From positions 1,273 to 65,272 of the forward strand of contig VMFT01000002.1 of NCBI GenBank assembly GCA_007376195.1: DNA of 64,000 nt, read 5' to 3'. The notes under the pieces are model-generated. The model ran no database searches, was not told the DNA's origin, and worked only from the letters and a program-made list of their open reading frames with translations. The number at the start of each line of letters is the position of its first letter. Position 1 is the first letter of the stretch. This document shows, in pieces, positions 31,754 to 60,399 of this stretch. This DNA is from Parcubacteria group bacterium Gr01-1014_29 (GTDB lineage: Bacteria > Patescibacteriota > Minisyncoccia > Ryanbacterales > 2-02-FULL-48-12). The position numbers and the translations under genes were made by a program.

Positions 31754-32280
31754 CTACCGGTTTTGTGATTTGAAAGAGGAGTGATGCAAGTTATATTCTT
31801 TGAGATAGTTACGGAGTGTCCGCGTGGTCAATTTTGATATCTGAGCCGCTCTGGTCATGTTGCCTTGCGTTCTAAATAAGATCGCAGTAATGTATTGTTT
31901 CCTAGCGTCTGCGAGTGTCGGCAGTACCTCATCATATTTGATGAGCGGCGAAGGTATTTCGATGTGTGATAAAGAGATTTCAACAGGCGGCAAAGGTATT
32001 TCGTGAAGCTGGAAGAAGTCGCTAGCCCCAACAACTTGTTTATCCACTCGCTTTTTGATATATTGCAACTTTGTTGGTGGTGTGCGATTTTTTCTATAAA
32101 ATTTTTGTTAGAAATATAATCATCCACTTGGCTTTTACTTAGTTCCCGAGTAGTAAAAAGAAACATTAAAATCTCATAGTAAACGTGCTCCGCACTTCTT
32201 TTTAGTTTTTTCTCGGATATACTCATAGCTTTCCAGTGAACGGTTGATTGAGAATTGATTATCTTGGTGTTGGAACTCAA
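31754..32280 (-). pseudogene. AT-rich gene for a Fis-type HTH protein, apparently frameshifted (two overlapping ORFs)
   Basis: ORF 31754..32068 carries a C-terminal HTH (MTRAAQISKLTTRTLRNYLKEY). ORF 31855..32280 overlaps it in another frame; T-runs sit at 32088-32108. Confidence 0.3.
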
Positions 32281-32333
32281 GTTAGGCGCTATCTATCAAC
32301 TCTTGCAAGACATAACTACCCCAGATTTTAATT

Positions 32334-32408
32334 TGGTGTCCTCGGCAGGAATTGAACCTGCATCAAAGGCTTAGGACGCCCCTATTCTGTCCGTTGAACT
32401 ACGAGGAC
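32334..32408 (-). tRNA. tRNA-Arg (anticodon CCT)
   Basis: Minus strand: GTCCTCG acceptor, D-loop with GG, anticodon loop gTCCTaa, T-arm GCAGG-TTCAATT-CCTGC, 3' CGAGGAC-A-CCA. Manual fold; the anticodon stem has two G-U pairs. Confidence 0.65.
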
Positions 32409-33028
32409 ATAATTAACTGATTAAGTCTTTTTATAATGCAAAATATTTCTTTTAATAACAATCCTCCTTTTTTAACTCTGACTCTACACATGCCATATTT
32501 AAGTTTACCTTTCTTTTTACCTTTTAAAACATTCACGCTCGTCTCTTTCCCTAGCTTGATTCCGGTTACTTCAGACCAAAATTTAAGGCAGTTTTTCTTG
32601 TTGAGATCTTCATATATTCTTACTGAAATTTTAAGGTCGCTGTTCTGAATTCCGAAAGTAGTTCGTAAGGTATAAAGAAATAATCTAATTAAATCCGGAT
32701 CAGTATTGGAAAGTCCAAAATCTTTTTTTGATCCCTCAGCCCAATATAAAGAAGTTGCTATAAGGGCTAAATCTTTTCGTGTCAAACAATCCATTAATTG
32801 TTCGGCTTTTCCCTTAGCTGTATCCCAATGTCGCTCAGAAATGATTTTACTTGCATTACGGCGGTTAAGCCATCTTTGATAATGTTTAGGGAGTATGTTA
32901 ATATTTTTTATGTATCTCGATGCGGTTGATTTCGAAATTTCGCACATGCGGCTTATTTCGGGTACACTATAACCCCGAGCTCTTAAACTTCGGATTTCGG
33001 AGATTTTATCATCTTGGATAGGTAGCAT
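32399..33028 (-). CDS. AT-rich protein with N-terminal resolvase-type HTH and LAGLIDADG-like (LYWAEGS) homing-endonuclease-like domain
   Basis: GYSVPEISRMCEISKSTASRYIKN HTH; IATSLYWAEGSKK resembles a single-motif LAGLIDADG. GC content is far below its surroundings; the stop overlaps the tRNA-Arg 5' end by about 10 nt. Confidence 0.4.
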   Translation of the reverse strand: MLPIQDDKISEIRSLRARGYSVPEISRMCEISKSTASRYIKNINILPKHYQRWLNRRNASKIISERHWDTAKGKAEQLMDCLTRKDLALIATSLYWAEGSKKDFGLSNTDPDLIRLFLYTLRTTFGIQNSDLKISVRIYEDLNKKNCLKFWSEVTGIKLGKETSVNVLKGKKKGKLKYGMCRVRVKKGGLLLKEIFCIIKRLNQLIMSS

Positions 33029-33074
33029 ATACCCAGAGTATCAGTACATACAATTATGTCAAGGACGGACTTGC

Positions 33075-33110
33075 TCTATCCAGTTGAGCTATGGGGGCTT
33101 AGGCCATGGC
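33075..33110 (-). other. tRNA 5'-half-like fragment (acceptor plus D-arm) without a matching 3' half
   Basis: Minus strand reads GCCCCCA-TA-GCTC-AACTGGAT-AGAGC-A-AGTCC.. then loses tRNA structure; a second partial copy (GAGCGGATAGAGCAA) lies about 35 nt upstream. Confidence 0.35.
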
Positions 33111-33272
33111 GGGTAGGTGTTTGCTCTATCCGCTCCGACGCTCTGCTTTGCCCGCCCAGAGGCGGGTCCGCCTCGGGCGGAAACTACGAGGGCATGTTGC
33201 CATAGTATAAGAAAATGGTAGTATTGTCTTGTAGCAACTTGAAATACATCAATCCCGAAAAGGAGGGTTTAT

Positions 33273-33734
33273 ATGCCGCTACCTGGAATTCTTGAAAACC
33301 GCTTTTGCCCTCTTTGCGGGTTTCAACTCGAAGGCGATAATTTTCTTGAAACAATAGAGCAAAGCGAAGAAGAATATTATTTGTGCCTGCAAGGTAAACA
33401 CACCGCACCATGTGTGGTGCAAGAAGAACGGCACCACGAAGAATGGCCGGTAAGTTTTTTTGTGGTATGGCGGGCAGACGGCGCAAAAATCAAAAGCGAG
33501 AAGAGATGGTGTTTGTTTTGCGGCTTTCCAACAGATGAATGTTATACATATATTGATTTTACTGCGGAGAGTCAACAAAAAGGGTGTGTGTTCTCTGTTT
33601 GCTCTAGCGTAGAATCCCATGCGTGGCAAGAAGTTCATAATGAGACATGCATTTTCTTTGTAGAGGAAACAGTAGAGAAGTTGGCTCTTTTAGAGCACAT
33701 GTTCATGTTTCTTAGTTGGGGGTTGCCAAATTGA
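33273..33734 (+). CDS. hypothetical Cys-rich protein (two CxxC pairs; zinc-ribbon-like)
   Basis: CPLCGF ... CLFCGF pairs. Confidence 0.4.
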   Translation: MPLPGILENRFCPLCGFQLEGDNFLETIEQSEEEYYLCLQGKHTAPCVVQEERHHEEWPVSFFVVWRADGAKIKSEKRWCLFCGFPTDECYTYIDFTAESQQKGCVFSVCSSVESHAWQEVHNETCIFFVEETVEKLALLEHMFMFLSWGLPN

Positions 33735-41230: not shown

Positions 41231-41273
41231 AACTTTATAAAGTTCCTTTATTTTGCATAACTTTATAAAGTTT
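41231..41273. promoter_or_regulatory. two copies of the 14-bp perfect palindrome aactttataaagtt (28 bp apart) upstream of the HTH-Fic gene; candidate operator
   Basis: Read directly at 41231-41244 and 41259-41272. Confidence 0.4.
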
Positions 41274-59613: not shown

Positions 59614-60399
59614 ATGAAAAAACTTATTGTCGCAAACTGGAAGTGTAATCCCGCAACTTTGCGCCAAGCGCAGGAGTTGTTTCGCGCGACAATTAAGGCG
59701 GTCCCAAAAAGCAAAAATGTTAAGGTTGTTGTCTGTCCTCCTTCTGTGTATCTTTCAGGCTTCAGGTTTTCCGCCAAAGGCGGATCCGCCTTTGGCGGAC
59801 AAGTTTCAGGTCTTAAGCTCGGCGCCCAAGACGTGTTTTGGGAAGATACAGGAGCATATACGGGTGCGGTGGGTCCGCGGATGTTGAAGAGCGTCGGCGT
59901 GACATATGTCGTCATGGGGCATTCGGAGCGGAGAGAACAATTTGGCGATACGAACGAGTCGGTAAGAAAGAAAGTGGCGGCGGCTCTGAAAGGGGGCCTC
60001 TGCGTTATTGTATGCGTGGGCGAGAAAACGCGAGAAGCCGATGCGTCAGAATACGCGTTATATGTGAAGAAAGAGGTTGAAGAAGCTCTTCGCGGCATTT
60101 CAAAGGCGGCGCTGAAAAATGTGGTGGTGGCATACGAGCCGTTATGGGCTATTGGATCGGATGAGGCGGATACGCCGGAAAGCACGCTTGAGATGGCATT
60201 GTATATCCGCAAAATAATTGCTGGTATGTTTGGTAATGTAGTCGCGCAGAGTTTTCCCGTGCTCTATGGCGGATCGGTAAACATAGGAAACGCGCGCGCT
60301 TTTTTGCGAGATGGCGGCGTTGATGGTTTATTGGTAGGGAGGGCAAGTTTGGACTCAAAGGCGTTTGGGAAGATAGTTGAGGAAGCAAATGGTTTATAA
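59614..60399 (+). CDS. tpiA: triosephosphate isomerase
   Basis: VANWKCN, GHSERR, AYEPLWAIGS, GGS. Start taken at MKKLIVANWK. Confidence 0.85.
   Translation: MKKLIVANWKCNPATLRQAQELFRATIKAVPKSKNVKVVVCPPSVYLSGFRFSAKGGSAFGGQVSGLKLGAQDVFWEDTGAYTGAVGPRMLKSVGVTYVVMGHSERREQFGDTNESVRKKVAAALKGGLCVIVCVGEKTREADASEYALYVKKEVEEALRGISKAALKNVVVAYEPLWAIGSDEADTPESTLEMALYIRKIIAGMFGNVVAQSFPVLYGGSVNIGNARAFLRDGGVDGLLVGRASLDSKAFGKIVEEANGL
59771..59798. repeat. 28-nt perfect palindrome ccgccaaaggcggatccgcctttggcgg inside the tpiA reading frame, flanked by ttcagg direct repeats
   Basis: Read directly; it encodes an extra SAKGGSAFGG loop relative to canonical TIM. Confidence 0.5.

What the first reader, a model, noticed from the sequence alone, without database searches (positions are those of the whole stretch)
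59754..59810. In-frame 28-nt perfect palindrome (with central GGATCC) inside tpiA, flanked by TTCAGG direct repeats
ccgccaaaggcgg-a-tccgcctttggcgg lies within the TIM coding sequence and adds about eight residues (SAKGGSAFGG) to a loop relative to canonical TIM alignments (inference from memory of TIM sequences). The hexamer ttcagg occurs twice immediately 5' and once immediately 3'. That resembles a target-site duplication around a tiny palindromic insertion tolerated in a surface loop.
Basis: partly seen in the sequence, partly recalled or inferred. Interest (0 to 1): 0.55.

Follow-up and report, generated by a model that had tools for sequence, protein, structure and literature searches.

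The report
Tiny double-hairpin insert in tpiA
The palindrome inside this triose-phosphate isomerase gene is one copy of a 30-base, GC-rich "double-hairpin" DNA element that has inserted itself, in frame and without wrecking the protein, into many essential genes and tRNA-gene fragments of uncultivated bacteria from several phyla, and no description of it turned up in the papers I could search.

Summary
Window 59770-59799 is a perfect 30-nt palindrome, TCCGCCAAAGGCGGA|TCCGCCTTTGGCGGA, and each half is itself a hairpin. It lies in frame in tpiA and encodes SAKGGSAFGG.

The closest orthologue (86-89% identical) lacks exactly these 30 nt. It already has all three TTCAGG hexamers, so they are host sequence, not a target-site duplication. 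AlphaFold puts the ten residues in the only disordered stretch, the α2-β3 loop. The residues invariant across the orthologue alignment, which include N8, K10, H103 and E175, are all present.

The element is not unique to this gene. All are MAGs or SAGs: 51 Patescibacteria, 19 Omnitrophota, 13 PVC, and others. Stems are constant, loops vary (T-Y-N), and flanks are tTT…AAa.

- **In genes:** over half lie in long ORFs, 80% of them in the phase giving S-A-x-G-G-S-A-x-G-G. Hosts include DnaG, RpoC, GyrA, UvrB, UvrC and aminoacyl-tRNA synthetases.
- **In tRNA pieces:** others sit in arm loops of duplicated tRNA-gene fragments, one at window 33151-33181.

Best reading: a tiny selfish palindromic element, tolerated in a surface loop. 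Its mobilising mechanism is unknown. It resembles mitochondrial double-hairpin elements and Rickettsia palindromic elements.

The parts
59614..60399 (+). tpiA (triose-phosphate isomerase, 261 aa), the host gene. The ORF is intact and the alignment-invariant residues N8, K10, H103 and E175 are present.
   Evidence: ORF list. 100% match to 'triosephosphate isomerase, Parcubacteria group bacterium Gr01-1014_29' with PF00121. Invariant columns. PDB TIMs match at E = 5.7e-57.
59770..59799 (.). The 30-nt double-hairpin element, TCCGCCAAAGGCGGATCCGCCTTTGGCGGA. It is a perfect palindrome, in frame as SAKGGSAFGG (residues 53-62).
   Evidence: Absent from the closest orthologue. Matches the dispersed family found.
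59770..59784 (.). Hairpin unit 1: stem TCCGCC/GGCGGA, loop AAA (the reverse-complement orientation of the family unit).
59785..59799 (.). Hairpin unit 2: stem TCCGCC/GGCGGA, loop TTT (family unit loop consensus T-Y-N).
59754..59769 (+). Left flank TTCAGGCTTCAGGTTT. This is host sequence, one copy of a pre-existing tandem repeat, and it ends in the T-run typical of insertion sites. It is not a target-site duplication.
59800..59814 (+). Right flank CAAGTTTCAGGTCTT. This is host sequence, the second copy of the pre-existing repeat, and it is present next to the first copy in the empty-site orthologue.
33151..33181 (.). [quoted passage not shown] It is non-coding and lies inside a duplicated tRNA-Arg 5' fragment.
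   Evidence: The same layout occurs in L092.
33182..33193 (-). 5' piece of a duplicated tRNA-Arg(CCT) gene. It reads GCCCTCGTAGTT on the minus strand and is interrupted by the element at the D-loop position. The intact gene reads GTCCTCGTAGTT|CAACGG.
   Evidence: By eye against the intact tRNA; ARAGORN does not call a tRNA here even after the element is deleted.
32334..32408 (-). Intact tRNA-Arg(CCT), downstream of the fragments and of an ORF with weak HTH-domain matches (32399-33028, minus strand).

Best explanation
The palindrome is one copy of a dispersed family of roughly 30-nt, GC-rich double-hairpin DNA elements. Each element is two inverted copies of the unit TCCGCC-TYN-GGCGGA. This copy entered tpiA as a clean 30-nt insertion after the T-run of a Phe codon, with no target-site duplication.

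It persists for three reasons. It is ten codons long. It lies in the reading phase that yields a flexible Ser/Ala/Gly peptide. And it falls in a disordered α2-β3 surface loop. On this reading it does nothing for TpiA and is a tolerated passenger.

The following are shown:
- it is an insertion relative to the nearest orthologue;
- it belongs to the family;
- it lies in a loop;
- members share flank and phase regularities, and no target-site duplication is seen.

The following are inferred:
- The element is selfish or mobile and is copied by something acting in trans.
- Candidate 1 is a single-strand (HUH/Y1-type) nickase-transposase that joins the hairpins at TT^ sites, often in the loops of stem-loop DNA.
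- Candidate 2 is a small GIY-YIG nuclease.
- Candidate 3 is repair-templated copying from another copy, primed by TT/AA microhomology.
For: - **Insertion:** the window and L001 differ by exactly these 30 nt at 89% amino-acid and 82% synonymous-site identity.
- **Family size:** My own estimate from the composition of the loci is about 0.04 expected by chance.
- **Only common double hairpin:** among DNA not selected by the pattern, 10 of 16 generic double hairpins belong to this family, against 0.8 double hairpins in total expected.
- **Anatomy:** loops are NNA then TNN, the centre is GATC in 94 of 123, and 19 of 123 are perfect palindromes.
- **Flanks:** T at position -2 in 78-84% of copies on both sides, the same in coding and non-coding copies.
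- **Coding context:** 69 of 127 elements lie in open stretches of at least 600 nt, and 55 of those 69 are in phase 0.
- **Hosts:** DnaG, AspRS, PheT, UvrB, a class-I aaRS, UvrC, RpoC, RecG, CysRS and GyrA.
- **No target-site duplication:** none in general. At tRNA fragments compared with the adjacent intact gene, five of seven insertions are exact and two carry one extra A.
- **Loop placement:** AlphaFold pLDDT is 88.3 overall, and the only stretch below 50 is residues 54-63.
- **Independent datasets:** the related tpiA copy is identical in four separate assemblies. Hits include long-read MAG contigs of 0.7-1.6 Mb and a single-cell genome.
Against: - No enzyme is identified.
- No recurrent neighbouring gene was found across the 120 loci.
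- The GIY-YIG link rests on 9 ORFs, 4 of them within 200 nt of an element. It may simply reflect that both features sit at tRNA-gene fragments.
- The stems look invariant partly because the search pattern fixed them.
- The same essentially identical 30 nt across at least 8 phyla is hard to reconcile with neutral selfish DNA. In gyrA two lineages carry the identical element while third-codon identity is only 0.60. That suggests constraint, recent transfer or recurrent insertion.
- Only one nucleotide-level filled/empty pair is clean in a protein gene. The gyrA pair also differs by one codon.
- Translation of the insert is inferred from the phase bias, not observed.
Confidence: 0.7

Rival explanations
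1. Local origin. A pre-existing 15-nt hairpin in tpiA (TCCGCCAAAGGCGGA, encoding SAKGG) was copied in inverted orientation by strand-switching during replication. That would create the perfect palindrome in place, with no mobile element involved.
For: The two halves differ only in AAA versus TTT, which is what an inverted rather than a direct duplication of a hairpin would give. Relatives carry single units at this loop: STKGG, SAKDG and SAVGG. The loop sits in a tandem-repeat context that could be prone to slippage.
Against: The closest orthologue has neither half. The same two-unit element, with the same stems, occurs at 120 or more unrelated loci in other genes and phyla. Most of those copies have non-complementary loops, which an inverted duplication would not produce. 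The single units in relatives carry mismatches in the stems and look like decayed copies.
Confidence: 0.05
2. Selected function. The element is kept because it does something useful. Possibilities are a DNA or RNA structure (a protein-binding or uptake signal, an mRNA pause or stability hairpin) or a useful flexible decapeptide. It would then be more than a passenger.
For: Stems are essentially identical across phyla. gyrA lineages L120 and L217 share a 30/30-identical element while synonymous sites are about 60% identical. tpiA genes only 48-69% identical carry it at almost the same loop. There is a strong phase bias. The lineages are Patescibacteria, and the tpiA neighbourhood of one relative (L002) encodes a Competence-domain protein (PF03772).
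Against: The element occurs in unrelated genes, in non-functional tRNA fragments and in intergenic DNA. It is absent from most orthologues, including about 50 gyrA relatives and the nearest tpiA. Copies are visibly decaying in tpiA relatives. Density is low, 2 per 64 kb here. The orientation is wrong for a terminator, with the T-run before and the A-run after. The phase bias is equally explained by purifying selection against Arg-rich or Pro-rich readings.
Confidence: 0.15
3. Artefact. The palindrome is an assembly or library chimera, or a synthetic sequence (its centre is a BamHI site), and is not part of the organism's genome.
For: Inverted duplications are a known class of assembly and library artefact (own knowledge). 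All hits are MAGs or SAGs. The window's own tpiA allele is known from a single contig.
Against: It is mid-contig and in frame in an intact gene. The related tpiA insertion is identical in four independent assemblies. Hits come from many studies and include long-read MAG contigs of 0.7-1.6 Mb and a single-cell genome. Loops vary while stems do not. Literature hits for GGCGGATCCGCC are only cloning primers in unrelated work.
Confidence: 0.02

Closest known systems
Mitochondrial double-hairpin elements (DHEs) of chytrid fungi and Schizosaccharomyces
   Same: Both are short, GC-rich and predicted to fold into two hairpins. Both are scattered in intergenic DNA and inside structural RNA genes. Copies are identical or differ only in a loop across species, which leaves open purifying selection or horizontal transfer. 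Both are 'potentially mobile' with no known enzyme (PMC10085805).
   Different: DHEs are organellar and fungal. The element here is bacterial, spans at least 8 phyla, and lies mostly inside protein-coding genes in a preferred reading phase. Sequence similarity to DHEs was not tested because no DHE sequences were at hand.
Rickettsia palindromic elements (RPEs)
   Same: Palindromic selfish repeats that insert in frame into unrelated housekeeping genes and are translated as part of the protein (PMC10969869).
   Different: RPEs are about 150 bp, encode a conserved peptide of their own, and are described from Rickettsia. This element is 30 nt and crosses phyla.
REP / REPIN elements with RAYT transposases
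   Same: Palindromes of 20-40 bp, often occurring as inverted doublets. A hairpin is the recognised unit (PMC3733652 abstract; REPIN and RAYT from own knowledge).
   Different: REPs are extragenic, carry a GTAG or CGTC tag at one end, are high-copy and are species-specific. Here 54% of copies lie in long open stretches, there is no such tag (flanks are TT/AA), copy number looks low, and the sequence is shared across phyla.
MITEs in general
   Same: Small, non-autonomous, inverted-repeat structure, forms stable stem-loops (PMC10969869).
   Different: MITEs are typically AT-rich, intergenic, 100-500 bp, flanked by target-site duplications, and derived from an identifiable IS. None of these holds here.
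IS200/IS605-type single-strand transposition (and its miniature derivatives)
   Same: Hairpin ends, no target-site duplication, and insertion next to a short T-containing target (own knowledge of IS608/ISDra2). Insertion here is at TT^, and in the tRNA-derived targets it falls inside the loop of a stem-loop.
   Different: No TnpA was found nearby. The hairpins abut the junction with no room for the guide sequences those elements need. Both flanks show the preference, not just the left one.
GC clusters of yeast mitochondria and the 'byp' inserts of Magnusiomyces
   Same: GC-rich hairpin inserts of about 30-50 nt that can sit inside coding regions (own knowledge).
   Different: The byp inserts are skipped by the ribosome. 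Here the phase bias argues for ordinary translation.

Membership tests
Triose-phosphate isomerase (host gene) | PF00121 fold and residues invariant in TIM alignments | tested here: met
   PF00121 precomputed. N8, K10, H103 and E175 are invariant columns. PDB TIMs match at 5.7e-57 over residues 2-257. AlphaFold pTM is 0.89 with alternating strands and helices.
MITE | Flanking direct repeats (target-site duplication) | tested here: not met
   The empty site in L001 is restored by removing the 30 nt alone. Of seven tRNA-fragment versus intact-gene comparisons, five are exact and two carry one extra A. Flanking direct repeats are only marginally more frequent than in the random control.
MITE | AT-rich, intergenic, derived from an IS that supplies a transposase | tested here: not met
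   Both 15-nt hairpin units are two-thirds or more G+C. 54% of copies lie in long open stretches. No recurrent transposase-like neighbour was found in 120 loci.
REP/REPIN-RAYT | Extragenic location | tested here: not met
   69 of 127 copies lie in open stretches of at least 600 nt, inside DnaG, RpoC, GyrA, aaRS genes and others.
REP/REPIN-RAYT | Conserved GTAG or CGTC tetranucleotide at one end | tested here: not met
   The flank profile shows tTT on the left and AAa on the right, with no GTAG or CGTC.
REP/REPIN-RAYT | A RAYT (Y1 transposase) gene in the same genome | not testable with these tools
   Only 64 kb of the source genome and 8-kb windows of the others were available.
Rickettsia palindromic elements | In-frame insertion into unrelated protein-coding genes | tested here: met
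Rickettsia palindromic elements | Length of about 100-150 bp with its own conserved peptide; Rickettsia lineage | tested here: not met
   30 nt. Found in Patescibacteria, Omnitrophota, PVC and others.
Mitochondrial double-hairpin elements | Short GC-rich sequence folding into two hairpins, with variation concentrated in the loops | tested here: met
   One caveat: the perfect copy in the window is predicted to fold as one long hairpin when single-stranded.
Mitochondrial double-hairpin elements | Sequence relatedness to fungal DHEs; organellar location | not tested
   No DHE sequences were available. The location here is bacterial chromosomes.
IS200/IS605-like single-strand elements | No target-site duplication and insertion 3' of a fixed short target | tested here: inconclusive
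   No duplication. The left flank ends in TT in most copies, but also in TA, TG or TC, and the right flank is equally biased.

The most novel reading that the evidence does not exclude
A previously undescribed class of ultra-small (30-nt) double-hairpin mobile DNA spreads within and between bacterial phyla, chiefly Patescibacteria, Omnitrophota and the PVC group. It inserts cleanly at TT^ sites, including the loops of tRNA-gene arms and surface loops of essential proteins. It is translated as S-A-x-G-G-S-A-x-G-G and is moved by a dedicated but unidentified hairpin-recognising enzyme. It would be a bacterial counterpart of the long-unexplained mitochondrial double-hairpin elements and GC clusters.
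Probability: 0.45. Interest if true: 0.8.

Novelty: new variant of a known kind. Interest (0 to 1): 0.66.

Why it matters
If the reading is right, essential genes of the smallest-genome bacteria are being peppered with a 30-nt element that cells tolerate by translating it.

- **Annotation and alignment.** There is a recurrent, recognisable 10-residue insert in DnaG, RpoC, GyrA, aminoacyl-tRNA synthetases and TpiA. Treated as homologous characters, these residues could mislead phylogenies of these lineages.
- **Loop tolerance.** The insertions are a natural experiment on which protein loops tolerate additions.
- **A marker.** Presence or absence of a copy could mark strain history and gene transfer.
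- **An old open question.** How GC-rich hairpin elements move has been unresolved for mitochondrial double-hairpin elements and yeast GC clusters for decades (own knowledge). Here there are thousands of genomes and many filled/empty site pairs, which makes the question approachable by comparative genomics and by testing candidate nucleases.

Tried and rejected
- **TTCAGG as a target-site duplication.** Rejected. The hexamer is at chance frequency and is present at the empty site.
- **General target-site duplications or inverted repeats around family members.** Only a marginal excess was found, driven by a few microsatellite-like flanks in Omnitrophota.
- **Rfam.** The window yields only three tRNAs at the gathering threshold. 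Nothing was found at 32200-33400 at E up to 10 apart from the tRNA.
- **The second copy (33151-33181) as an interrupted tRNA.** ARAGORN finds no tRNA even after the element is deleted. The tRNA-fragment reading rests on by-eye similarity to the intact tRNA-Arg and on the parallel case L092.
- **LAGLIDADG nature of ORF 32399-33028.** I guessed this by eye. Pfam does not confirm it and gives only weak HTH matches.
- **L029 as another tpiA.** It is not one.
- **Metagenome scan for close tpiA relatives.** Only one locus reached 65% identity and the rest were below 50%, so it was of little use for dating the insertion.
- **A conserved neighbouring gene across 120 loci.** None was found. The largest cross-locus cluster was an ABC ATPase in 5 loci.
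- **Viral contigs.** Only 3 hits, so phages are not an obvious vehicle.
- **Literature.** Seven searches (the sequence itself, palindromic elements plus CPR, double-hairpin, GIY-YIG plus tRNA, RPE and others) found no description of this element.
- **Counting the decapeptide in the protein database.** Not possible. The query was too short and the E-value ceiling too low.
- **Terminator reading.** Rejected, because the T-run precedes and the A-run follows the hairpins.
- **RNA-level excision (intron-like).** Considered because of the tRNA D-loop copies. It is disfavoured by the strong reading-phase bias, which only matters if the insert is translated.
Full report
**1. The observation**

Window 59770-59799 reads TCCGCCAAAGGCGGATCCGCCTTTGGCGGA. 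It is a perfect even palindrome of 30 nt centred on GGA|TCC, and it extends to 18-nt arms with one mismatch. Each 15-nt half is itself a hairpin with a 6-bp stem and 3-nt loop. The halves differ only in AAA versus TTT.

No other palindrome in the 64-kb window has arms longer than 8 nt, and 100 dinucleotide-preserving shuffles never exceeded 11. As single-stranded DNA it folds at -16.9 kcal/mol, z = -6.6.

It lies in frame in a 261-codon ORF (59614-60399). That ORF is 100% identical to the annotated triose-phosphate isomerase of the MAG 'Parcubacteria group bacterium Gr01-1014_29'. The 30 nt encode residues 53-62, SAKGGSAFGG.

**2. It is an insertion, and the TTCAGG repeats are not its footprint**

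The nearest TpiA in about 5.8 billion proteins, P0002, is 251 aa long. It is 86% identical by BLASTP and 89% over aligned codons, with 82% identity at synonymous third positions. It lacks exactly these ten residues.

- Its DNA (L001) reads ...tca ggc ttc agg tta | cag gct tca ggt ttt aag...
- The window reads ...tca ggc ttc agg ttt [30 nt] caa gtt tca ggt ctt aag....

Removing the 30 nt restores collinearity. There is a one-base ambiguity at the junction: TT^A is the most parsimonious placement.

The empty site already contains all three TTCAGG copies, as a 14-nt tandem repeat CAGGCTTCAGGTT(A/T). Nothing was duplicated on insertion.

Against a solved Geobacillus TIM, the region is 8 residues longer.

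**3. Where it sits in the protein**

An AlphaFold2 model built on 32 orthologues has mean pLDDT 88.3 and pTM 0.89. Its only stretches below pLDDT 50 are residues 54-59 and 61-63, between helix 44-49 (α2) and strand 67-71 (β3). By general knowledge of TIM barrels, α-to-β loops lie on the face opposite the active site.

Residues N8, K10, H103 and E175, together with the other invariant positions of the orthologue alignment, are all present. The gene looks functional, and the insert looks like a floppy surface loop.

**4. It belongs to a large dispersed family**

The window holds a second, imperfect double hairpin at 33151-33181: CCCGCCcagaGGCGGG|TCCGCCtcgGGCGGA.

A Ryanbacteria TpiA, P0003 (67% identical), carries TCCGCCAAAGGCGGATCCGCCTCGGGCGGA in the same loop. 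That copy is identical in four independent assemblies.

I scanned one genome per species of GTDB with TCCGCCN{3,4}GGCGGAYCCGCCN{3,4}GGCGG. My estimate from the base composition of the loci is about 0.04 matches expected by chance.

All 120 are MAGs or single-cell genomes. By record title they break down as:

| Group | Loci |
|---|---|
| Patescibacteria | 51 |
| Omnitrophota | 19 |
| Planctomycetota / Verrucomicrobiota / Kiritimatiellae / Lentisphaerae | 13 |
| 'Uncultured Gammaproteobacteria' | 11 |
| Bacteroidota / Ignavibacteriota | 5 |
| Chloroflexota | 4 |
| Firmicutes | 2 |
| Other | 3 |
| Unclassified | 12 |

They include long-read contigs of 0.7-1.6 Mb. IMG/VR viral contigs gave only 3 hits. 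In about 420 kb of DNA not selected by the pattern, 10 of the 16 adjacent 6-bp-stem double hairpins were this family, against 0.8 double hairpins in total expected from shuffles.

**5. Anatomy of the family**

- The first loop is NNA in 115 of 123 copies, and the second is TNN in 118 of 123. The element is therefore two inverted copies of one oriented unit, TCCGCC-T-Y-N-GGCGGA.
- The commonest unit loops are TCT, TTT, TCC and TTC.
- Only 19 of 123 copies have complementary loops and so form a perfect 30-nt palindrome, as the window copy does.
- The centre is GATC in 94 copies and GACC or GGTC in 29.
- Doubles dominate. There were 127 doubles and 35 singles, and many 'singles' are doubles with one decayed half.
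- Flanks are otherwise unrelated, but T occupies position -2 in 78-84% of copies, -1 in 59%, and -3 in 52-56%, symmetrically on both sides (tTT[E]AAa). The figures are the same for coding and non-coding copies.
- The tRNA comparisons below show that the flanking Ts pre-exist in the target. This is therefore a site preference, not part of the element.

One caveat applies throughout. The stems were fixed by my pattern, so their apparent invariance is partly by design. Variants with compensating changes do exist, for example CCCGCC/GGCGGG, and ACCGCC/GGCGGT in L218.

**6. What it lands in**

Of 127 elements, 69 lie in open stretches of at least 600 nt. That is 54%, against 72% for random 30-mers in the same loci. 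Of those 69, 55 are in the phase that reads S-A-x-G-G-S-A-x-G-G, where one third would be expected. The typical context is F-SAxGGSA(S/F)GG-K.

Pfam identifies ten tested hosts as DnaG, AspRS, PheT, UvrB, a class-I aaRS, UvrC, RpoC, RecG, CysRS and GyrA. Because 30 nt keeps the frame in any phase, the phase bias matters only if the insert is translated. It is most simply explained as selection against the Arg-rich and Pro-rich readings.

A second class of sites is striking. In L042, L046, L069, L092, L110, L040, L117, L070 and the window itself, the element sits in the loop of the D-, anticodon- or T-arm of a duplicated, non-functional piece of a tRNA gene next to the intact gene.

- Deleting the 30 nt from L069 restores an ARAGORN-callable tRNA-Val(GAC).
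- Comparison with the adjacent intact copy gives seven more filled/empty pairs. Examples are GTAGTT^CAATGG, CTCAGTT^GGTTAG, GGGTTC^AAATCC and GAGATT^CGAGT.
- Five of the seven are exact, two carry one extra A, and none shows a duplication.

**7. Recurrence, persistence and decay**

The tpiA α2-β3 loop is a hotspot.

- P0003 and P0110 carry double elements after a Phe codon. In P0003 the insertion point lies two codons upstream of the window's site.
- P0009, P0012 and P0015 carry single units with stem mismatches: TCCaCCAAAGGCGGA, TCCGCCAAAGaTGGA and TCCGCtgttGGCGGA.
- P0004 carries a related 16-nt palindrome, TCCGCCAGCTGGCGGA.

In gyrA, two lineages (L120, L217) have the identical perfect element at INL^KK, while about 50 relatives lack it. 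Third-codon identity between the two genes is only 0.60. Neighbouring relatives carry other GC hairpins at the same loop.

So copies are gained repeatedly at favoured sites. Some decay. Some stay perfect for longer than neutral drift would predict, or else are re-acquired.

**8. How it most likely works**

The following are shown:
- clean insertion;
- family membership;
- site preference;
- phase bias;
- loop placement.

The following are inferred. The element is selfish DNA copied in trans. Three mechanisms fit the data.

- **(a) A hairpin-recognising single-strand nickase or transposase.** This fits the absence of target duplication, the TT^ junction, and the targets inside loops of stem-loop DNA.
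- **(b) A small GIY-YIG nuclease.**
  - In support: nine such ORFs lie in the 854 kb of element loci, and none in 444 kb of other loci.
  - In support: four lie within 200 nt of an element, three of them between a tRNA fragment and its intact gene.
  - Against: this may only reflect that both features gather at tRNA-gene fragments.
- **(c) Repair-templated copying from another copy.** TT/AA microhomology would prime it, which would explain the symmetrical flanks without any dedicated enzyme.

I cannot choose among these. No conserved neighbouring gene emerged from 120 loci.

**9. Comparison with what is known**

The closest analogues are:
- mitochondrial double-hairpin elements, which are short, GC-rich, predicted to form two hairpins, show loop-only variation, are conserved across species, and have no known mechanism (PMC10085805);
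- Rickettsia palindromic elements, which insert in frame into housekeeping genes but are about 150 bp (PMC10969869).

The element fails the defining tests for MITEs: no target duplication, not AT-rich, not intergenic. It also fails those for REPs: not extragenic, and no GTAG or CGTC tag. Seven literature searches found no description of this sequence or of such elements in these phyla. The searchable library is incomplete, so this is absence of evidence only.

**10. Verdict**

The 'small palindromic insertion tolerated in a loop' reading is supported. The target-site-duplication reading is refuted.

I rate it a new variant of a known kind, namely selfish palindromic repeats that invade genes.

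The main uncertainties are:
- the mobilising mechanism;
- whether conservation reflects function or transfer;
- how far the MAG-only distribution reflects biology rather than sampling.

Noticed in passing
window 32334-33200 (minus strand): Composite locus. It contains a tRNA-Arg-like 5' fragment interrupted by the second double hairpin (33151-33193). Next come another tRNA-like 5' half (33058-33098), a 209-aa ORF with only weak HTH matches (32399-33028), and the intact tRNA-Arg(CCT) (32334-32408). It looks like the remains of a mobile insertion into a tRNA gene.
   Followed up: partly
L040 7380-7835; L046 7270-7699; L069 225-720: Small GIY-YIG ORFs (PF01541) lie between a duplicated tRNA-Ser or tRNA-Val fragment and the intact or complete tRNA copy. 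The fragment carries the hairpin element in a loop. These look like homing-type cassettes targeting tRNA genes. GIY-YIG ORFs are enriched in element loci: 9 in 854 kb against 0 in 444 kb.
   Followed up: partly
window 59751-59820 and orthologues (L001 279-312; alignment A1 columns 57-90): The α2-β3 region of these TpiAs holds a 7-residue tandem repeat whose two copies co-vary between orthologues. Examples are SGFRLQA/SGFKFGA, NHKLQTV/NYKLG, SNLKSQI/SNLKLGA and RYK.../RYKLG. In L001 it is a 14-nt DNA tandem. No explanation was found.
   Followed up: no
L209 1159-1174; L138 1707-1722; L205 1611-1626; L050 7235-7250: A related single-hairpin element, the 16-nt perfect palindrome TCCGCCAGCTGGCGGA. 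It is inserted in the tpiA α2-β3 loop (read as H-P-P-A-G-G) and, in other TpiAs, between FWE(D/E) and G-(S/A)-(Y/F)-T-G. One copy (L050) lies in a Giovannonibacteria locus.
   Followed up: partly
L212 (tpiA of P0005) and L219 1377-1450 (gyrA of P0131); L218 1413-1520; L157 2399-2432: Other GC-rich hairpin inserts occur at the same protein loops: CCTGCC...GGCAGG types, and ACCGCCAAAGGCGGT. L157 has an unrelated double hairpin, GGTCGCCgaaGGCGACC|GCCAGCCgtaaGGCTGG. This suggests several families share the habit.
   Followed up: no
L013 4569-4752 and 6390-6572; also L008, L074, L043: In Kiritimatiellae and Verrucomicrobia MAGs the element is the 5' part of a 185-nt intergenic repeat. The rest of that repeat is a GTCATTCCGAGCG...CAGGATGAC hairpin. 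The same motif forms the leader of a GIY-YIG gene in L008, and that gene is itself bounded by inverted repeats of about 36 nt.
   Followed up: partly
L120 and L217 (gyrA): The identical perfect element (loops AGA/TCT) lies at the same codon in two gyrA genes that are 86% identical in protein and only 60% identical at third positions. Both also lack one Gly codon that all about 50 empty-site relatives have.
   Followed up: partly
L080 6076-6105 vs window 59756-59769: The left flank of an intergenic Omnitrophota copy shares an exact 14-mer, CAGGCTTCAGGTTT, with the left flank of the window's tpiA copy. Several Omnitrophota copies sit in CAGGTTA-type heptamer repeats. This could reflect a preferred target motif or coincidence.
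   Followed up: no
window 41231-41244 and 41259-41272: The 14-nt palindrome AACTTTATAAAGTT occurs twice, 28 nt apart. It could be an operator-like pair.
   Followed up: no
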